UHGV virus genome: UHGV-0131581
DNA: 21,583 nucleotides
Strand: one strand, 5' to 3'
DNA from: a virus
Made by a program: the position numbers and the translations under genes. The notes beneath the pieces are model-generated. The model was not told the origin of the DNA, made no database searches, and saw nothing but the letters and a program-made list of their open reading frames with translations. Positions 10,123-21,583 of the stretch are shown here, piece by piece (within the stretch, counting starts at the first letter, position 1; each line of letters starts with the position of its first letter).

Positions 10123-10509
10123 ATGAATCTTAAAGCAACTGTCGTAGCGGGAGCATGTTTCATCATCCTGTTATATGCGCACGGCTACTATCAATACCGC
10201 ATCGGCTGGAACGAAGGCCGGGCGAATCTCGTTTCGCAGCAACAACAGAAAGCGCAGGCTGAGTTAGCAAAGAAAACACAACGGCAGCAGCAGGACGAAT
10301 CGAAGGCCGCAGCCGCTGATAACGAAGGCAAGACGAAATCAGAGGTGATTACCCGTGAAGTCGTTAAGTACATTAAAACGCCTGGTCGCAGCGTGTGCAC
10401 TTTTGACCCTGAGCGCGTGCAGCTCAAGTCCCGAGCCGTCGCGAATGCCAATTCCATCCCCGGATACGACGATGATGCAGTCGCCGTGCAAACTGGCCCC
10501 GCCAAGTAG
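10123..10509 (+). CDS. i-spanin (Rz-like inner-membrane spanin subunit)
   Basis: N-terminal TM helix (VVAGACFIILLYAHGYY), Gln/Ala/Lys-rich coiled-coil region, AAGGAG RBS, and a lipoprotein gene in its +1 frame. Confidence 0.65.
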   Translation: MNLKATVVAGACFIILLYAHGYYQYRIGWNEGRANLVSQQQQKAQAELAKKTQRQQQDESKAAAADNEGKTKSEVITREVVKYIKTPGRSVCTFDPERVQLKSRAVANANSIPGYDDDAVAVQTGPAK

Positions 10510-15232: not shown

Positions 15233-15645
15233 TGGGCTACTTTGAGGACTTAACAAAAGCGTTTGATGTTCCGCTGGTAGCCTTCGGAAACACCAACGGC
15301 ATCAAGGTTGCGCTTGAAAATATCGACGCGCCGACGTCTACCGATACACCGTATCTGGCGAGTTACATGTTGCTGGCGGATACCGAGCAGGCGGATTTGT
15401 TCTTCACAGAACAACGCGCTGGTGTCTATCAGGTCGACATTAACTACGCATCGGTGAAGGGTAGCGCGCCAATCAATAAAATGGCAGACTTACTTAACAC
15501 GGCGTTTAAAGCAGGTAAGTCATTTTCACGTAACGACATCTGCGCCGAGGTTCAATCGGTTAGCCTGGGGCCGCTGATTGTAGAAAACGGATGGGCCAAA
15601 CGACCATTGTCAATTAACTTTATTGCATTCACCAAGAGGCTGTGA
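15229..15645 (+). CDS. Putative tail terminator protein
   Basis: 138-aa protein immediately upstream of and coupled to the major tail protein gene. Position-based. Confidence 0.35.
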   Translation: MMGYFEDLTKAFDVPLVAFGNTNGIKVALENIDAPTSTDTPYLASYMLLADTEQADLFFTEQRAGVYQVDINYASVKGSAPINKMADLLNTAFKAGKSFSRNDICAEVQSVSLGPLIVENGWAKRPLSINFIAFTKRL

Positions 15646-16814
15646 ATATGGCTACAACTCCTTTTAAGGGCGCGAATACCGCGCAATTCTATGTGGCGGA
15701 AGTGACCCCGGGCGTAACACCTGATAACCCGGTCTGGTCGCCGTTGCGCAACACAGGCGGTGTTCCCGCCGTTACCCGCGACACGCTGGCCTCCAACGAA
15801 CTGGACGGCAGCCGTGAAACTACATCCATCCGCACCGGTAACAGGCAGGTTAGCGGGGAATACGCAATTGAGCTTAGCTCGAAAAGCCAGGACGACTGGC
15901 TGGCTGGCGCTTTAGGCTCTACGTGGCAGTCAGGGGCTTCTCTGTCAGGGTTATCGATTACCGTTGCACCGGCGGGTAAGACGTTCACCCGTGCTGATGG
16001 TAGCTTTATTACCGACGGCGTTGAAGTGGGCGACCTGATTGCGTTTACCGACTTAACGGGCGACAACGCTAAGCCGTTTATCGTTACTGCGGTAGAGGCA
16101 CTGGCGGTAACAGGTGCAGGTATCCAGCACACTCTTACCGCGGAGACTGTCACTACCGCGGCCAAAACTGGAGATAAACTGGAAACCGGTAACCAATGTA
16201 AGACGTTCTCTATTCTCACCTGGTACAAAGGCCAGTGCGGAGGGGCCAGTGTATATACGCTGACCAAAGGCGTTGAAGTTTCGGGTTTTACCGTTGAACA
16301 GGCAGTTAATGCGATGGTAACTGGCAGCTTCCCGTTCATCGGTCGCAGTCAGGAGATTCTCACCGAGCAGCCGTCCGGTTCCGACTTCTCTTCCGTTACG
16401 TTTGGTGACGAGCCGTTCTCCTCGGTTGACGTTTCTGTGTTCGATGGGTCTACGCCGTTGCGTTGCGACAGTCTGACCATCACTAACGACAACAGCGCGT
16501 CCGCACAGTTCGAACTCGGCAACACTAACGTGGCCTTTGTGGAACGTAGCCGCGCAGCTAACACATTCTCTATCTCCGGCAAACTGTACGACATGGCTAT
16601 GATTCAGAAGTTTATCAACGAACAGCAGGTAGAGATTAACTCTATTCTGGCTGGGGTAAACGGTGCTATGTCTTTCAGTTTGAAACGCGCAGAGCTTACG
16701 GCGGTTACGCCAGAGATTGGCGGACCTGAGTCAATCACTCAGTCCATTGAAGGACAGTCCACAGGCAATCAATATCAATCATCTATCGTAATTCAACGTA
16801 TTAGTTACGCGTAA
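15642..16814 (+). CDS. Major tail protein
   Basis: 390-aa Thr/Ser/Gly-rich protein preceding the chaperone and tape-measure genes and followed by a strong terminator. Synteny-based. Confidence 0.6.
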   Translation: MNMATTPFKGANTAQFYVAEVTPGVTPDNPVWSPLRNTGGVPAVTRDTLASNELDGSRETTSIRTGNRQVSGEYAIELSSKSQDDWLAGALGSTWQSGASLSGLSITVAPAGKTFTRADGSFITDGVEVGDLIAFTDLTGDNAKPFIVTAVEALAVTGAGIQHTLTAETVTTAAKTGDKLETGNQCKTFSILTWYKGQCGGASVYTLTKGVEVSGFTVEQAVNAMVTGSFPFIGRSQEILTEQPSGSDFSSVTFGDEPFSSVDVSVFDGSTPLRCDSLTITNDNSASAQFELGNTNVAFVERSRAANTFSISGKLYDMAMIQKFINEQQVEINSILAGVNGAMSFSLKRAELTAVTPEIGGPESITQSIEGQSTGNQYQSSIVIQRISYA

Positions 16815-16841: not shown

Positions 16842-17072
16842 TTACTCATCAATATTGCTTCGGTATTCCCGCAACTTCTCCAGACTTTCAATTGCTTCTG
16901 CTAAGTCGGTTACGGTGTCCTTGTGCCCACGTAAACCCATGCACAATAGCTTCTTCAATGCGTGCTGTAACGCCGGGTCGCGGATGTCGAAGGCGCGCAG
17001 CACATCGTAAACGTCTACGGTCATAGTGCTGCCGTGAGTGTTTGTCATTGTGCGGTTGTATTTTGAAGTCAT
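16842..17072 (-). CDS. Small hypothetical protein (76 aa)
   Basis: Minus-strand ORF ATGA-coupled to the HNH gene; contains DVYDVLRAFDIRDPALQHALKKLL. I do not recognise the family with certainty. Confidence 0.5.
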   Translation of the reverse strand: MTSKYNRTMTNTHGSTMTVDVYDVLRAFDIRDPALQHALKKLLCMGLRGHKDTVTDLAEAIESLEKLREYRSNIDE

Positions 17073-17542
17073 TTTCCGTGCCTCTCAGTAAAGTCTTTCT
17101 TTTCTTTGTAAAAACATTCTGCATATCTCACGGCGTCTTCTTTTTGGTCAAAACGCTTGGCTATCCTATTCCCGTTATATTGAATTTGAACGACCCATTT
17201 ACCGTTATATGTTTTACTAACCCCGGTAACACCAGACGAGTTATCCCTGCGCTTTGCTGCATTTTTGCAGTTTATGTGCCGGTCGCACAGTCGAAGATTC
17301 TCTATACGGTTATCGCTTTTCACACCGTTTATATGGTCAATCTCCTTGCCTTCTGGTATAGCTCCGTTAAACATTTCCCATATAATTCTGTGGGCGAATG
17401 TCATTTTTGATCCTAGTTTAGTTCTTACATATCCGCGGTGGTCAACGTACCCTACTTTACGTCCTTTCGGGTACTTAGGGTTTACGCTGTCCTTAGCGTA
17501 AAGATTCCCGTTTTCGTATTCGTAAACGTTATTCCATGTCAA
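17069..17542 (-). CDS. HNH homing endonuclease with AP2-type DNA-binding domain
   Basis: YVDHRGYVR ... IDHINGVKSDNRIENLRLCDRHINCKN (HNH_3-type core) followed by SGVTGVSKTYNGKWVVQIQYNGNRIAKRFDQKEDAVRYAECFY (AP2-like). Confidence 0.85.
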   Translation of the reverse strand: MTWNNVYEYENGNLYAKDSVNPKYPKGRKVGYVDHRGYVRTKLGSKMTFAHRIIWEMFNGAIPEGKEIDHINGVKSDNRIENLRLCDRHINCKNAAKRRDNSSGVTGVSKTYNGKWVVQIQYNGNRIAKRFDQKEDAVRYAECFYKEKKDFTERHGK

Positions 17543-18678
17543 TTTATACCCCCTATCATTTCTGGTGATATTGTGAGGCGTGCCACCTCCCCATATTCTG
17601 CACTATATGTTATCACGTTAGCACTACGGCCAGACATCCAACCCCCTCGCGATGCGTAAGCATCTTTCGCCGCCAGGGTGCGGTGCTGTTCGACTACCAT
17701 ATTACGGCTCTCTACTAGTTTCTGATGATGTAGATGGCCTACATGGGCGTAACTGTATGTGCTTTCACCGAAAGCCTTACGGAATTTAGAAATCATTACT
17801 GACTCTATGGCATCGAATCTCGCACGGTGTCCGTGGTGCATGAACAGCGTAGTTTTTCCATGCTGAACCATCTTGTATACGTCGGGGGAGGTGTCCACAA
17901 ATACGCGAGGTTCGTTGTCATACAATGTGCAGAACATTTCGGCAAGCCATACGGAGCCGACAGGGTCGTGGTTACCTTGGACGATTAAAAGTTTGACTGT
18001 GTGATGTTTAACCAGAGCCATATCAACAACACGGCGTACCATACGAATCATGTAGCGGACCAGTTTCTGATAGCGCGTATCCGCGTCTAACACATGACGT
18101 GACTCAGGTGTAACGGCATCCAGACTATCGAAGTGCGCGAAATCCCCCAGCAGGTTAATAACTCCTGTTCCTGCGTCCGGCGCTTTCTGAAACGCCGCGT
18201 CGAACCATCGAGAGAACAGGTCTTCCGCGATTTTCATATCCCAGTCGTCGCCGCTCTCGTCGGCCCAGGCCAGCATACCGAGATGGAAGTCAGATACCGT
18301 GTAAAGATTGAGTAGTTTATCGTCACGTTTGGCCCGAACGGCTTTAACAGGCGCAACCGGCGTAATCTCTGACTTCATGCCCTCAATTACGGCTTTCATC
18401 AACTCAACCTGACGTTCGGCATCGGTGTCTGTCTTAACCCATTGCAACTTAGTGTTGCCGAACTCGTCTACCAGTGACGACGTCCCTTTAATCTTGTAAC
18501 CGTCTGGTACAAGGTGGCTAACGTCACGCCCGTGGCCCACACCTTTCTTTGCCAGCTTCGCTTTACGGATACGAATAACTCGGTCTGAGATGCCGTATTT
18601 ACGGGCTATATCTATATTCTTCACCCCGGCGTTCAATTCTTCCTGTAATTGTTCGTCGGTTATTTTCTTCCGGGCCAT
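17539..18678 (-). CDS. HTH domain fused to calcineurin-like metallophosphoesterase (379 aa)
   Basis: N-terminal ~45 aa HTH-like (ITDEQLQEELNAGVKNIDIARKYGISDRVIRIRKAKL). Phosphoesterase motifs in order: SDFHLG (D-x-H), LLGDFAHFD (GD..D), VQGNHDP (GNHD), FMHHGH, HVGHLHH (GHxH). GAGGAAG RBS. Confidence 0.75.
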   Translation of the reverse strand: MARKKITDEQLQEELNAGVKNIDIARKYGISDRVIRIRKAKLAKKGVGHGRDVSHLVPDGYKIKGTSSLVDEFGNTKLQWVKTDTDAERQVELMKAVIEGMKSEITPVAPVKAVRAKRDDKLLNLYTVSDFHLGMLAWADESGDDWDMKIAEDLFSRWFDAAFQKAPDAGTGVINLLGDFAHFDSLDAVTPESRHVLDADTRYQKLVRYMIRMVRRVVDMALVKHHTVKLLIVQGNHDPVGSVWLAEMFCTLYDNEPRVFVDTSPDVYKMVQHGKTTLFMHHGHRARFDAIESVMISKFRKAFGESTYSYAHVGHLHHQKLVESRNMVVEQHRTLAAKDAYASRGGWMSGRSANVITYSAEYGEVARLTISPEMIGGIN

Positions 18679-18743
18679 GCTTACTTCCTCGTGTTTAGGA
18701 TTTGTCCTATTTAACCACAGTGCATTCCTTTAAATAAAGGCGA

Positions 18744-19070
18744 CTATTTACTTTCCACGCCTATCGCCCATCCAGTCATTACCATTTGCAGACGAGTAGC
18801 TGTTAGTAGGCTGTAAAACGCGTCCCCGTTTTTCTCTACCGAACGTATTACCGAGTATGTTACGGCTTGTGCAGGTAGACCTGATTTACCAACCTCTACG
18901 GCAGCCTCACATTCACGAACTGTAGAGTCCTTAAATGCCTTTACAATAGTAGGGTCGGCTTTTTCAAGCACGCCAGAAGTCATAAGAACAGACTCACTAA
19001 ATACCTGTTCGCACGGAGACCCAAAAGCGGCAAAAGACATAAACCCCAGAGCTAATACTAATTTACGCAT
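18744..19070 (-). CDS. Secreted/periplasmic hypothetical protein (108 aa, N-terminal signal peptide)
   Basis: MRKLVLALGFMSFAAFGS: basic N-terminus plus hydrophobic core, no lipobox; GAGGAA RBS; first gene of the minus-strand operon. Confidence 0.5.
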   Translation of the reverse strand: MRKLVLALGFMSFAAFGSPCEQVFSESVLMTSGVLEKADPTIVKAFKDSTVRECEAAVEVGKSGLPAQAVTYSVIRSVEKNGDAFYSLLTATRLQMVMTGWAIGVESK

Positions 19071-19087
19071 AATTATTTCCTCAGTAA

Positions 19088-19222
19088 GTTACAGGTGAAT
19101 AGTACCCTATTATATTGGGGTGTGCAAGTAGTGTGCTAGAATAAGTTTGCGCCTAGTGTCGCACACGAAAAGCGGGTGGTTCCCGTCTGGCGCATTTCCC
19201 TTAACCTGTAACCTCTTAACCA
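19088..19222 (+). promoter_or_regulatory. Divergent promoter/operator region between the minus-strand island and the tail chaperone gene
   Basis: GTTACA (19088-19093), 17 nt, TATATT (19111-19116); GTGTGC direct repeats at 19120 and 19131 with inverted copy GCACAC at 19162-19167; TTAACC-TG-TAACC-TC-TTAACC at 19199-19222. Confidence 0.35.
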
Positions 19223-19234
19223 AAGGATTAAAGA

Positions 19235-19651
19235 ATGAAACTTTCTGATTTCTATTTTGCGGACCGCCATGCTGTAGGCACTAAAATGCCTATCCTTCTG
19301 CCGAGTGGTAAAGACTCCGGTGAATGGCTGCAGGTCATCGGCCCTGATTGTGACGCGGGTGTTCGTGCGGGCCGCGCCTACACAACGGCAATTCGACGCC
19401 TTACGGAAGAACTTGCGCCATTAGATAAAGAGTGCGAGGCGCTGAATAACTGGGCACGTTATAACGATGAGAAGGGCTGGCGGGTGATGGACCTGAACAA
19501 GCAGCTTGCCGTGGAAATCGTCACCGGTTGGTCATTCGACGAACCGTTCAGCAAAGAGGCGCTGGCTAACCTGTTTGACCAGTACAGCGGGTTGGCAGAA
19601 GCCGTAGTTAAGCACCACACCGATAGCCGCGAGAAACTCTCGGAAAAGTAA
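19235..19651 (+). CDS. Tail assembly chaperone (G-like)
   Basis: 138-aa acidic protein in the conserved slot upstream of the tape measure gene, with an overlapping -1 frame ORF downstream. Confidence 0.55.
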   Translation: MKLSDFYFADRHAVGTKMPILLPSGKDSGEWLQVIGPDCDAGVRAGRAYTTAIRRLTEELAPLDKECEALNNWARYNDEKGWRVMDLNKQLAVEIVTGWSFDEPFSKEALANLFDQYSGLAEAVVKHHTDSREKLSEK

Positions 19652-20013
19652 AAGCGCTGTATGAATTTGCGCAATGGTGTTTTGTTGACCGTCACAAACG
19701 TAAGCAATTTGACGACATCGCGGCAGGCCACCAGGCGGCTTTGATTGCAATGGGCGTGATTAAAGAACCGCAGATGAAAGAAACGACGGGGCCAGAATGC
19801 CCCGTTTCTCTTATCGACGTGTTCGAGAAATACCGTGCCATTAAATTCCTACAGCGCGAAACAGATGATACTATCGTTATAATCCCGCGCGATGCGCTCA
19901 AATGGCAAGATTTGGTAGCGTTTCGTGATGTCGCCGGTTACGGCATAAGTTTGTTCGAAGCCGAGGTTATCATGGGCTTAGACGGAATATTTGAGGGCAG
20001 AGAAGATGGCTGA
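19627..20013 (+). CDS. Probable -1 frameshift extension of the tail assembly chaperone (GT-like product)
   Basis: The -1 frame is open from 19627 to TGA 20011-20013, overlaps the zero-frame stop (19649-19651), and ends 8 nt into the tape measure gene. Candidate slip at GGAAAAG (19642-19648). Confidence 0.4.
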   Translation, partial: PRETLGKVKALYEFAQWCFVDRHKRKQFDDIAAGHQAALIAMGVIKEPQMKETTGPECPVSLIDVFEKYRAIKFLQRETDDTIVIIPRDALKWQDLVAFRDVAGYGISLFEAEVIMGLDGIFEGREDG

Positions 20014-21583
20014 TACGGCTTCCCTAATTGCCAGAGTAAAAACAGAAGGTGCTGACGTAGCTGCCAAACAGCTTGACGCTATGGCTGCATCCGCAGACCG
20101 GGCGGACACATCCGTAAATAAACTAACGCCGGATGTTAATAAAGTTAACACCGCCACATCCAAAGCGGCCTCTGACGGTTTCGCTAAGTTCCGTAACGCC
20201 GCCGGGCAGGTGGGCTTCCAGGTGCAGGACATGGTTGTCCAGTTGCAGTCCGGTACGTCCGCATTCGTAGCAATCGGACAACAAGGTTCTCAGCTTGCGG
20301 GTGCTTTCGGCCCTGGTGGTGCGGTGCTTGGGGCTGTAATTGCTCTTGCGTCAGCTATCGGCGGCGTCTTGTACAAATCGCTAACAGAGGCGGAGGGGAG
20401 TTCAAAAGACCTCGAAGCCGCGCAGAAACAGTTAAAAGACACCTTCCAGCAAACAGCATCTGGCTCTCTCGAACTGACAGACGGCCTCATCCAGCTTACC
20501 CAAATCAGCCGAGAAGCGGCGGAGACTCAGCTTGCTCTGGCTAAGGCTAACGCAGACCTTATCGCGCAGCAAACAGCTAAAGCCGTTCGAGAGGACGCAG
20601 AATCATGGGAGACATGGAAAGCATCCACGGCATCGGCTATTAGCCAGTATGATGCGCTGGTCTCTAAGGGCGCGGATGTAGGCGACACGTTAGAAAAACT
20701 AGGCGGCACTTACGAGGGCAACATCGTAGGTGTCAACATGCTGGCACAGAATATCGCGGAGCTTAGCAGTAAGTTCGGGGTTAACCGCGGCCAGGCCCTG
20801 GAGATGATAGCGGCGCAGAGCGCGTTCAATAAAGAGCCGACCGCTGAGAATGCCCGTCGCATCGCCGATGTGTTTACCGACTGGCTGGGTAACACAAAAC
20901 AATTGAACCCGGAGCTTATCCGCCTTACCGATAATGCCAACAAGAATGCCACGGCACTGGAGAACGCTGAGAAGTCGGCAAACGCCGCGGCGGAGGCCCA
21001 AAAGAATCTCGGTCGTAACGTCAACTCAACGACGCAGAGATTCCAGGAACAGAACGAAGCTATCGTTAAGAACCAGCAAATCGCCATCTTAAGCGACCGT
21101 GAGCGCATCCGGGCGCAAGCTGAACTTGATAAGCAGGCGTTTGCTAAACGTGAAGCTGTCACCAAAGAACAGATAGCCGCGTATAACGCCGCCCGTGACG
21201 CGGAAGCGCAGCAAGACATCGCCCGCATCGACAAGACCGAGAAAGAGAAGGCAGACCGCGAGGCTAAATCGAATGAGAAACGCCTGGCGGCGCAAGCCAA
21301 ACGTGAAGAAATGGCGGCTGAACGACAGAAAAAAGCGGCGGAAGATTTCCTGGCTACTGTCGACCGCACAACCGGAGACGAAATTTCACGTATTACAGCG
21401 GCAGAAGAACAGAAACTGGCGAAACTTGAGGAGTTCAACCGCGCAGGAACGATAAGCCAGCAGCAATACGAAAACGCCAAAACTCAAATTATGCTCACAG
21501 CCGAGCAGGCCAGACAGGAAGAACTGGATAAGAAAAGAAAAGAAGCCCAGGAGAAGCAGCAGAAAGGCGACGACTTCATGGCT
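20006..21583 (+). CDS. Tail tape measure protein, N-terminal part (3'-truncated by the window edge)
   Basis: ATG 20006 opens a frame that runs uninterrupted to the window end (526 codons); Ala/Lys/Glu/Gln-rich coiled-coil with an early hydrophobic segment (AFVAIGQQGSQLAGAFGPGGAVLGAVIALASAIGGVLY). Confidence 0.75.
   Translation, partial: MADTASLIARVKTEGADVAAKQLDAMAASADRADTSVNKLTPDVNKVNTATSKAASDGFAKFRNAAGQVGFQVQDMVVQLQSGTSAFVAIGQQGSQLAGAFGPGGAVLGAVIALASAIGGVLYKSLTEAEGSSKDLEAAQKQLKDTFQQTASGSLELTDGLIQLTQISREAAETQLALAKANADLIAQQTAKAVREDAESWETWKASTASAISQYDALVSKGADVGDTLEKLGGTYEGNIVGVNMLAQNIAELSSKFGVNRGQALEMIAAQSAFNKEPTAENARRIADVFTDWLGNTKQLNPELIRLTDNANKNATALENAEKSANAAAEAQKNLGRNVNSTTQRFQEQNEAIVKNQQIAILSDRERIRAQAELDKQAFAKREAVTKEQIAAYNAARDAEAQQDIARIDKTEKEKADREAKSNEKRLAAQAKREEMAAERQKKAAEDFLATVDRTTGDEISRITAAEEQKLAKLEEFNRAGTISQQQYENAKTQIMLTAEQARQEELDKKRKEAQEKQQKGDDFMA

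What the first reader, a model, noticed from the sequence alone, without database searches (positions are those of the whole stretch)
18744..19070. Secreted 108-aa protein as first gene of the island
A signal-peptide protein with no lipobox, encoded by a phage and divergently transcribed from the tail genes, is a typical signature of periplasmic superinfection-exclusion or receptor-masking factors. Sequence alone cannot establish function.
Basis: inference. Interest (0 to 1): 0.45.

Follow-up and report, generated by a model that had tools for sequence, protein, structure and literature searches.

The report
Exported small protein in phage immunity slot
A virulent E. coli phage (Kagunavirus) encodes a small, strongly conserved protein that is probably exported to the periplasm, and its gene sits exactly where sister phages carry a T4-type superinfection-immunity gene, so it is a good untested candidate for a new protein that blocks secondary phage infection.

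Summary
Window 18744..19070 (minus strand) is a real 108-aa gene of a Kagunavirus (Guernseyvirinae). It has a good ribosome-binding site and is under strong purifying selection (dN/dS about 0.05). It has a Sec-type signal peptide whose -3/-1 cleavage motif is kept in all 13 family members compared. There is no lipobox. Two cysteines are invariant, and the mature part is confidently modelled as all-helical.

The protein has no Pfam, NCBIfam, PADLOC or PDB relative. The family is tiny: 9 genuine clusters among 1.84 billion proteins, all from phages of this tail type. It always lies in the same slot, on the opposite strand between the tail-tube and tail-chaperone genes.

The key new result is a cassette swap. 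In about two-thirds of Kagunavirus genomes, and in most Jerseyvirus genomes, the same slot holds a 59-63-aa Imm_superinfect (PF14373, T4 Imm family) membrane protein instead. DNA homology breaks exactly around the ORF and its 5' UTR. The promoter region upstream is 97% identical in both types.

This gives independent comparative support for a superinfection-exclusion role. That role most likely acts at DNA entry, not at receptor masking. Function is still untested. I score it as a new member of a known kind, of moderate interest.

The parts
18744..19070 (-). CDS of the 108-aa precursor. Codons 1-17 (19070..19020) are the predicted Sec signal peptide, with the cleavage site AFG|SP. The mature 91-aa protein is encoded at 19019..18747 and the stop codon is at 18746..18744. 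Cys20 and Cys54 are invariant. The most conserved segment is the C-terminal helix, residues 84-106, which contains G100-W-A-I-G104.
   Evidence: AF2 models (pLDDT 83, helices 19-25, 28-31, 40-63, 68-76, 84-106)
19078..19082 (-). Shine-Dalgarno sequence GAGGA, 7 nt upstream of the ATG
   Evidence: read from the sequence
19099..19127 (-). Conserved sigma-70-like promoter: -35 TTGCAC (19127..19122), 17-nt spacer, -10 TACTAT (19104..19099). The TTGCA and TAyTAT positions are invariant between Kagunavirus and Jerseyvirus, and between 108-aa-type and Imm-type phages. The match to consensus is only moderate (3/6 and 4/6), and the tool's own scan did not call it.
   Evidence: not called; its function as a promoter is inferred
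18711..19094 (-). Exchangeable cassette: 5' UTR + ORF + 33 nt of 3' flank. It is the only stretch between the phosphoesterase gene and the shared promoter that has no DNA homology to Imm-type Kagunaviruses, which carry a 236-nt Imm_superinfect cassette there instead.
   Evidence: equivalent boundaries in Jerseyvirus
19095..19234 (.). Shared divergent intergenic region. It is 97% identical to Imm-type Golestan. It includes an invariant block at 19158..19189 (minus strand CAGACGGGAACCACCCGCTTTTCGTGTGCGAC) of unknown role.
17539..18678 (-). Second island gene: a 379-aa protein with an N-terminal HTH-like region plus a calcineurin-like metallophosphoesterase domain (phrog_704, 'DNA repair exonuclease'). 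It is not always linked to the 108-aa gene in distant relatives.
17069..17542 (-). HNH_3 homing endonuclease. It is an insertion that is absent from Bas75 and Jersey.
16842..17072 (-). Last island gene, 76 aa (phrog_2452; annotated DUF3310 in one record)
19235..19651 (+). Tail assembly chaperone (Phage_TAC_4), the divergent neighbour. The tape-measure gene follows it.
15642..16814 (+). Tail-tube (major tail) gene that bounds the island on the other side

Best explanation
The gene encodes a Sec-exported protein that signal peptidase I cleaves. The mature product is about 91 aa (9.7 kDa, acidic) and all-helical, probably stapled by a Cys20-Cys54 disulfide, and it resides in the periplasm of the infected cell.

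It is transcribed by host RNA polymerase from a conserved sigma-70-like promoter in the divergent region next to the tail-chaperone gene. This transcription unit is separate from the surrounding tail genes.

Its most likely job is superinfection exclusion: it would stop DNA delivery by later-arriving phages of the same kind after they adsorb. It could do this by binding either an ejected tail component (tape measure or tip proteins) or a conserved host envelope component needed for DNA passage. That would make it a functional analogue of the T4 Imm-family membrane protein that occupies the identical slot in sister phages, and of T4's periplasmic Spackle.

Shown: the gene is real and constrained, it has signal-peptide features, invariant cysteines and a helical model, and the cassette swap with Imm_superinfect lies behind a shared promoter. 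Inferred: export and cleavage, the disulfide, promoter activity and timing, the exclusion function, and the step that is blocked.
For: 1. Signal-peptide architecture is kept in 13/13 homologues although the sequence diverges. The two Cys are invariant down to 31% identity, as expected for an oxidised periplasmic protein.

2. Two AF2 runs with different alignments give the same compact helical model (pLDDT 83, pTM 0.73-0.74).

3. Purifying selection is strong (dN/dS about 0.05).

4. The slot is conserved. In five distant metagenomic relatives (31-39% identity) the gene lies opposite-strand and next to the chaperone gene. In four it is the gene adjacent to the chaperone gene; in L018 a 65-aa membrane-protein gene lies between. 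The tail-tube gene is visible on the other side in four of the five. The rest of the island varies from none to about ten further genes.

5. Cassette swap. Golestan, fTaEco01, S111 and SETP3 carry a 59-63-aa protein in the slot that hits PF14373 Imm_superinfect at 49-57 bits (cut-off 27.9). Homology to the window is lost only over 18711..19094 and resumes at 97% identity in the promoter region. The same boundaries hold for Jersey versus S111 and SETP3.

6. The two cassettes look mutually exclusive. About 120 Kagunavirus-like records split into about 35 with the 108-aa gene and at least 72 with the Imm cassette. The complete Bas75 genome has the 108-aa gene and no Imm homologue.

7. Other occupants of the slot are also envelope proteins: an 84-aa single-TM YebO-like protein in VLCpiS11a, and a 65-aa 2-TM protein in L018.

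8. Precedent: T4 uses Imm plus Spackle. Spackle is a 97-aa precursor and a 75-aa mature helical-bundle periplasmic protein with one disulfide (PMC7677548).
Against: There is no functional data for this protein or for the Guernseyvirinae Imm homologues. 'Imm' there is a family assignment only.

Replacement at the same position could simply mark a promoter-proximal hot spot that tolerates any small envelope gene.

There is no sequence or structural similarity to Spackle, RI, Llp or any solved structure.

No peptidoglycan-hydrolase domain was found in the tail proteins, so a Spackle-type target is missing.

Very low dN/dS is not what one expects of a protein in an arms race, although it fits a conserved target.

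The only transcriptome of a relative (the Imm-type phage K1B4) classes the slot gene as peaking late. Classical exclusion genes are early, although that classification is coarse (PMC12645636).

SignalP was not run. The C-terminal helix is moderately hydrophobic (Eisenberg mean 0.38), so membrane association cannot be excluded.
Confidence: 0.45

Rival explanations
1. The slot is a promoter-proximal hot spot for any small envelope gene. On this view the 108-aa protein does something else in the envelope unrelated to secondary infection. Examples would be neutralising a host periplasmic enzyme or an envelope-associated defence, or conditioning the envelope for phage production.
For: The slot holds at least four unrelated small envelope proteins in different phages. 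The family has no homology to any known exclusion protein. Strong purifying selection fits a conserved host target.
Against: The dominant alternative occupant in both genera belongs to a family whose founding member (T4 Imm) is an exclusion protein (Imm's function is taken from PMC7677548). The swap is cassette-precise behind one promoter, which is most simply read as like-for-like replacement. No PADLOC or anti-defence signature was found.
Confidence: 0.2
2. The protein is a periplasmic regulator of lysis timing or of envelope integrity. It would be an antiholin-like sensor in the manner of T4 RI, or a protector against lysis-from-without, and would not block DNA entry.
For: T4 Spackle mutants show lysis-inhibition collapse, so exclusion and lysis control overlap in T4 (PMC7677548). 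The slot gene of the Imm-type relative K1B4 peaks late (PMC12645636). The protein is small, exported and helical, like RI (own knowledge of RI).
Against: Bas75 has a complete lysis set elsewhere: two holins, a soluble T4-type lysozyme and Rz/Rz1. The 108-aa gene is not linked to that set. No similarity to RI structures was found in the PDB searches. Lysis inhibition has not been reported for these phages in the papers read.
Confidence: 0.12
3. The protein is a receptor-masking factor. It would act at adsorption, preventing binding to infected cells and to debris, as T5 Llp and Rtp45 do.
For: Exported phage proteins of small siphophages do this in T5 and Rtp (PMC12685063, PMC9586334).
Against: Those factors are outer-membrane-anchored lipoproteins, and this protein has no lipobox (Pro at -1, read from the sequence). 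Kagunaviruses depend on O-antigen or capsule, with no protein receptor identified for them in that paper (PMC11990801). A 10-kDa non-enzymatic helical periplasmic protein has no obvious way to mask a surface glycan. The family is shared by phages that target different glycans (K1 capsule, O16, Salmonella O-antigens).
Confidence: 0.08
4. The N-terminal segment is an uncleaved signal anchor, or the C-terminal helix inserts in the membrane. The protein would then be an inner-membrane protein with a periplasmic helical domain, topologically closer to Imm, and not soluble.
For: The C-terminal helix (residues 84-106) is the most conserved part and is uniformly moderately hydrophobic. It has an invariant GxxxG-like G100-x3-G104 motif. 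The protein it replaces is a 2-TM protein.
Against: The h-region is only 13 residues, too short for a stable span. -3/-1 cleavage motifs are kept in 13/13 homologues. The 19-residue Kyte-Doolittle maximum in the C-terminal helix is about 1.0, below the usual threshold of about 1.6. AF2 packs that helix into the bundle at pLDDT 93-95.
Confidence: 0.1

Closest known systems
T4 Imm (Pfam PF14373, Imm_superinfect)
   Same: Imm-family genes occupy exactly the same slot, behind the same promoter, in sister Kagunavirus and Jerseyvirus genomes. Both are small envelope-targeted proteins of virulent phages.
   Different: There is no sequence relationship: the 108-aa protein has no Pfam hit. Imm is a 2-TM membrane protein of about 60-83 aa, whereas this is a cleavable-signal, soluble-looking helical protein with two Cys.
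T4 Spackle (gp61.3)
   Same: Both are small precursors (97 against 108 aa) with an N-terminal export signal. Both mature proteins are compact alpha-helical bundles with one Cys pair, the first Cys lying near the mature N-terminus. Both are periplasmic and come from virulent phages. Spackle partners Imm in exclusion (PMC7677548).
T5 Llp and Rtp45 (and Cor-type) exclusion lipoproteins of small siphophages
   Same: These are exported small proteins of virulent siphophages that protect infected cells and debris from further adsorption (PMC12685063, PMC9586334).
   Different: They are lipid-anchored, beta-containing, and bind the periplasmic face of a protein receptor (FhuA, LptDE). Here there is no lipobox, the model is all-helical, and these phages depend on glycans, with no protein receptor identified (PMC11990801).
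Ltp of Streptococcus phage TP-J34 (own knowledge, not checked here)
   Same: It is an extracytoplasmic helical protein that blocks DNA injection, reportedly through the tape measure protein of the incoming phage. That is a mechanistic model for a periplasmic protein acting after adsorption.
   Different: Ltp is a lipoprotein of a temperate Gram-positive phage. No similarity was found in the PDB searches.
phrog_14165
   Same: The protein is a full-length member (E 2.6e-55).
   Different: That family has no assigned function, so membership adds nothing mechanistic.

Membership tests
Sec/SPase-I signal-peptide (exported) proteins | Positively charged n-region followed by a hydrophobic h-region of 7-15 residues | tested here: met
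   The n-region is M-R-K and the h-region is L4-F16, with a Kyte-Doolittle 11-residue peak of 2.3. The feature is kept in all 13 homologues.
Sec/SPase-I signal-peptide (exported) proteins | Small uncharged residues at -3 and -1, and no Pro at +1 | tested here: met
   A15-F16-G17|S18 in the window. The equivalent sites are AFG, AIG, TFG, SFA, SLA, ALA, AKA, AIA, AGA, VAA and ASA in the 13 homologues.
Sec/SPase-I signal-peptide (exported) proteins | A positive call by a trained predictor (SignalP, DeepTMHMM), or experimental export | not testable with these tools
   No such predictor was available, and no experiment was possible.
Bacterial lipoproteins (SPase II) | Lipobox [LVI][ASTVI][GAS]C at the end of the h-region | tested here: not met
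   The residues before Cys20 are G-S-P (H-P in Jerseyvirus), and Pro at -1 is excluded. One distant homologue, P0028, does have a lipobox-like VLAVLG|C.
T4 Imm family (PF14373) | A match to the Imm_superinfect profile and a two-TM architecture | tested here: not met
   The 108-aa protein has no Pfam hit at E<=1. The positional substitutes in Golestan, fTaEco01, S111 and SETP3 do match at 49-57 bits.
T4 Spackle family | Sequence or fold homology to Spackle | tested here: not met
T4 Spackle family | A cognate tail-associated lysozyme as the target | tested here: inconclusive
   No peptidoglycan-hydrolase domain was found in the Bas75 tape measure or tip proteins by Pfam or PHROGs. A cryptic domain cannot be excluded.
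Superinfection-exclusion proteins (a functional class) | Expression reduces productive infection by homologous phage after or at adsorption | not testable with these tools
   This needs plating, adsorption and DNA-entry assays. Here there is only positional equivalence with Imm-family genes.
Llp/Rtp45-type receptor-masking lipoproteins | A lipid anchor and an outer-membrane protein receptor used by the phage | tested here: not met
   There is no lipobox (read from the sequence). Kagunavirus host recognition is reported as glycan-dependent (PMC11990801).

The most novel reading that the evidence does not exclude
The protein founds a new, structurally unassigned family of periplasmic superinfection-exclusion factors. 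On this reading it is functionally interchangeable with T4-type Imm in glycan-dependent virulent siphophages. It would block DNA delivery by binding a conserved element of the ejection pathway, either the tape measure or tip proteins or a host inner-membrane or periplasmic factor. Finding its partner would then expose the so far unknown periplasmic step of DNA entry in Guernseyvirinae.
Probability: 0.4. Interest if true: 0.6.

Novelty: new member of a known kind. Interest (0 to 1): 0.45.

Why it matters
Superinfection exclusion by virulent phages is understood mechanistically for only a few proteins: T4 Imm and Spackle, T5 Llp, and Rtp45. Here a natural, cassette-precise swap places an uncharacterised exported protein and an Imm-family protein behind the same promoter in otherwise near-identical phages.

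Several of these phages are in the BASEL collection and grow on engineered E. coli K-12. Bas70-73, 75 and 76 carry the 108-aa gene, and Bas74 carries Imm. K1H and K1G form a second such pair. That makes the question directly testable.

If confirmed, it would add a new exclusion family. It would also give a handle on how these glycan-dependent siphophages get their DNA across the periplasm. In addition it bears on phage-cocktail design, because cocktail members of the same exclusion type may interfere with each other.

Tried and rejected
- The Foldseek search against AFDB50 was unavailable.
- Pfam, NCBIfam, PADLOC, the PDB-sequence HMM search and Rfam all returned nothing for the gene or its region.
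- The full HMMER scan of 1.84 billion representatives found only 9 genuine relatives. It also returned one spurious repeat protein, P0029, which I rejected as compositional or repeat noise.
With the closer alignment there was no relative in 185,579 species genomes, so there is no evidence for a prophage or bacterial origin. The metagenome scan found only five near-identical contigs.
- I tested whether the gene is functionally tied to the neighbouring chaperone and tape-measure allele, because within Kagunavirus the two co-vary perfectly. I rejected this: SETP3 (Imm-type) shares 90% identical chaperone and tape-measure DNA with Jersey (108-aa type).
- I tested whether it is tied to the metallophosphoesterase. 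I rejected this: in L017, L019 and L021 the island lacks that gene.
- I looked for a Spackle-type target (a tail lysozyme) and found none.
- Remote homology to phiEB49 gp19 is suggestive by motif but not significant (hhalign probability 12%).
- The 30-44-aa ORFs annotated in the intergenic region of some records (for example Bas75_0025 and fTaEco01_020) overlap the conserved promoter region. I treated them as probable over-annotation and did not test them further.

Full report
**What is there.** The window is a Kagunavirus (Guernseyvirinae), a virulent E. coli siphophage. A 1-kb stretch around the finding is 92-95% identical to K1H, NTEC3 and the BASEL phages Bas70-73, 75 and 76.

A GAGGA Shine-Dalgarno sequence lies 7 nt before the ATG.

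It is the promoter-proximal gene of a four-gene minus-strand island (16842..19070). This island interrupts the plus-strand tail module between the tail-tube gene (15642..16814) and the tail assembly chaperone gene (19235..19651). The other three island genes are:
- a 379-aa HTH plus calcineurin-like phosphoesterase,
- an HNH homing endonuclease,
- a 76-aa protein.

The gene is real. It occurs in 99 phage records. Seven Kagunavirus alleles give mean dN 0.019 against mean dS 0.34, so dN/dS is about 0.05.

**The protein.** The N-terminus has the three regions of a Sec signal peptide: M-R-K, a 13-residue hydrophobic core, then A-F-G|S-P. No trained predictor was available, so I used comparison instead.

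A profile search of 1.84 billion representative proteins found only nine genuine relatives. Aligned with closer ones, all 13 sequences, down to 31% identity, keep three features:
- a charged start,
- a hydrophobic run,
- small residues at -3/-1, lying 2-7 residues before an invariant cysteine.

The sequence of this segment is otherwise poorly conserved, which is how signal peptides behave. Pro at -1 relative to Cys20 rules out a lipobox.

Cys20 and Cys54 are invariant, which suggests a periplasmic disulfide. Two AlphaFold2 runs with different alignments agree on a compact all-helical mature domain (helices 19-25, 28-31, 40-63, 68-76, 84-106; pLDDT 83).

The C-terminal helix is the most conserved part and carries an invariant G100-x3-G104 plus W101. 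It is only moderately hydrophobic and is modelled inside the bundle. I therefore favour a soluble periplasmic protein but cannot exclude membrane association.

**No known relatives.** Pfam, NCBIfam, PADLOC and a profile search of all PDB sequences returned nothing. The only family hit is phrog_14165, which has no assigned function.

In particular there is no detectable link to T4 Spackle, T4 RI, T5 Llp or Rtp45. A pattern scan of 185,579 species-representative bacterial and archaeal genomes found no relative. On this evidence the family appears confined to phages of this tail type.

**The slot.** Five distant metagenomic relatives (31-39% identity) all carry the gene in the same kind of position: on the opposite strand, next to the chaperone gene.
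- In four of them it is the gene adjacent to and divergent from the chaperone gene. In L018 a 65-aa membrane-protein gene lies between.
- The tail-tube gene is visible on the other side in four of the five. The L018 contig ends before it.
- The remainder of the island ranges from no further genes (L017, L021) to about ten (L020).

So the exported-protein gene, not the phosphoesterase, is the constant feature of the slot.

**The cassette swap (main new result).** Only about a third of Kagunavirus records have this gene. In the others the flanks match, but the slot holds a 63-aa protein annotated as a superinfection immunity protein. I confirmed this protein as Pfam PF14373 Imm_superinfect (49-51 bits against a cut-off of 27.9).

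The same alternation exists in the sister genus. Jersey and AG11 have the 109-aa homologue. S111 and SETP3 have a 59-aa Imm_superinfect protein (56.7 bits).

Pairwise blastn shows that the swap is cassette-precise:
- Against Golestan and fTaEco01, homology is lost only over window 18711..19094, which is the 5' UTR, the ORF and a short 3' flank. It resumes at 97% (Golestan) or 88% (fTaEco01) identity in the intergenic region.
- Jersey against S111 and SETP3 breaks at the equivalent points, and the promoter region is 97% identical.

An alignment of that region across both genera and both cassette types shows an invariant sigma-70-like promoter geometry: TTGCAx, a 17-nt spacer, then TAyTAT, at window 19127..19099.

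The counts fit mutual exclusivity. About 120 Kagunavirus-like records split into about 35 with the 108-aa gene and at least 72 with the Imm cassette. The complete Bas75 genome has the 108-aa gene and no Imm homologue anywhere.

Other occupants of the slot are also small envelope proteins. Baig et al. had already listed 'superinfection immunity protein' and 'tail assembly chaperone' among the genes that differ between phage P and phages G and L. They did not comment on what G and L carry instead (PMC5582158).

**Interpretation.** The simplest reading is like-for-like replacement. Two unrelated envelope proteins serve the same purpose from the same promoter, and the better-known one belongs to the family of T4 Imm, an exclusion protein that acts with the periplasmic Spackle (PMC7677548).

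Spackle is a close architectural analogue of the protein studied here. It has a short export signal, a mature helical bundle of about 75 aa, and one disulfide whose first Cys lies near the N-terminus. There is no homology between the two, however.

I therefore favour superinfection exclusion acting after adsorption, at DNA delivery (confidence 0.45).

Receptor masking is less likely, for three reasons:
- The characterised masking factors of small siphophages are lipoproteins bound to protein receptors (PMC12685063).
- This protein has no lipid anchor.
- Kagunaviruses depend on O-antigen or capsule, with no protein receptor identified for them in that paper (PMC11990801).

A Spackle-type mechanism lacks an evident target, because no muralytic domain was found in the tail proteins. 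A canonical lysis role is unlikely, because Bas75 has two holins, a soluble lysozyme and Rz/Rz1 elsewhere. A lysis-timing role remains possible.

Two caveats are important:
- The Imm homologues of these phages are themselves untested.
- The only relevant transcriptome (the Imm-type phage K1B4) classes the slot gene as peaking late, with the DNA polymerase and methylase genes and not with the tail genes. That separates the slot gene's timing from that of the neighbouring tail genes, which fits a separate transcription unit. It does not show early expression, and the time classes are coarse (PMC12645636).

**Ideas tested and dropped.** Within Kagunavirus the gene co-varies perfectly with a divergent chaperone and tape-measure allele. 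That hinted at a tape-measure target. But SETP3 (Imm-type) shares 90% identical chaperone and tape-measure DNA with Jersey (108-aa type), so the two modules assort independently. Coupling to the phosphoesterase is likewise excluded by L017, L019 and L021, where the island lacks it.

**Verdict.**
Exclusion gains real comparative support and receptor masking does not. Function remains inferred.
- The protein is a new, uncharacterised family and a likely new member of a known kind, the exported exclusion factors of virulent phages.
- Interest is moderate (0.45). It rests mainly on the clean natural swap and on tractable test pairs: Bas74 against Bas75, and K1G against K1H.

Noticed in passing
window 19158..19189 (intergenic, between the slot promoter and the chaperone gene): A 32-nt block (minus strand CAGACGGGAACCACCCGCTTTTCGTGTGCGAC) contains a small CGGG/CCCG hairpin followed by a T-run. 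It is almost invariant between Kagunavirus and Jerseyvirus, although the surrounding genomes are only about 70% identical. It could be a regulator-binding site, a late-promoter element for the chaperone and tape-measure operon, or a terminator. There is no Rfam match.
   Followed up: partly
window 17069..17542 (-): An HNH_3 homing endonuclease gene is inserted between the phosphoesterase gene and the 76-aa gene, and overlaps the phosphoesterase stop codon. It is absent at this point in Bas75 and Jersey, but a homing endonuclease is present in Salmonella phage S111. This fits a mobile element.
   Followed up: partly
window about 19330..21400 (chaperone gene body and tape-measure gene): This is a second, adjacent mosaic segment. 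It has no detectable DNA homology in the Imm-type Kagunaviruses Golestan and fTaEco01 (chaperone only 47-51% aa identical), while the flanks are 82-97% identical. Within Kagunavirus it co-varies with the slot cassette. In Jerseyvirus it does not (SETP3 against Jersey).
   Followed up: yes
L031 95-418 (-), Escherichia phage phiEB49 gp19 (Drexlerviridae): This 107-aa protein has a signal peptide (VNA|D), two cysteines 35 residues apart, and a CETAIE motif that resembles RECEAAVE of the window protein. It is a weak Foldseek hit (E 0.44), and hhalign gives a probability of only 12%. It may be a remote analogue in T1-like phages, but this is not established.
   Followed up: partly
P0028 (locus L019 2617-2982), a distant homologue: This homologue has a lipobox-like VLAVLG|C within its signal sequence, ahead of a second AGA|S site. 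Some family members may therefore be lipid-anchored.
   Followed up: no
window 17539..18678 (-): The 379-aa 'DNA repair exonuclease' (phrog_704) combines an N-terminal HTH-like segment (weak GerE/LuxR-type hit at residues 14-45) with a calcineurin-like phosphoesterase domain that scores below the Pfam cut-offs. It is conserved across Guernseyvirinae, and its role is unknown.
   Followed up: no
window 10123..10509 (+): An Rz-like spanin gene sits inside the head-morphogenesis module, far from the holin and endolysin genes. It is near-identical to the protein encoded by Bas75_0008, and Rz1 is embedded or overlapping as in Bas75_0009.
   Followed up: partly
window 19110..19270 (-), and Bas75_0025 and fTaEco01_020 in related records: Short ORFs of 30-44 aa are annotated in some records inside the conserved divergent promoter region. 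They are probably over-annotation and not genes.
   Followed up: no
L023 4171-4425 (-), Klebsiella phage VLCpiS11a gp44; L018 4876-5073: In these relatives the slot holds other small membrane proteins: an 84-aa single-TM YebO-like protein, and a 65-aa two-TM protein that precedes the 117-aa homologue. So the slot collects envelope proteins in general.
   Followed up: partly
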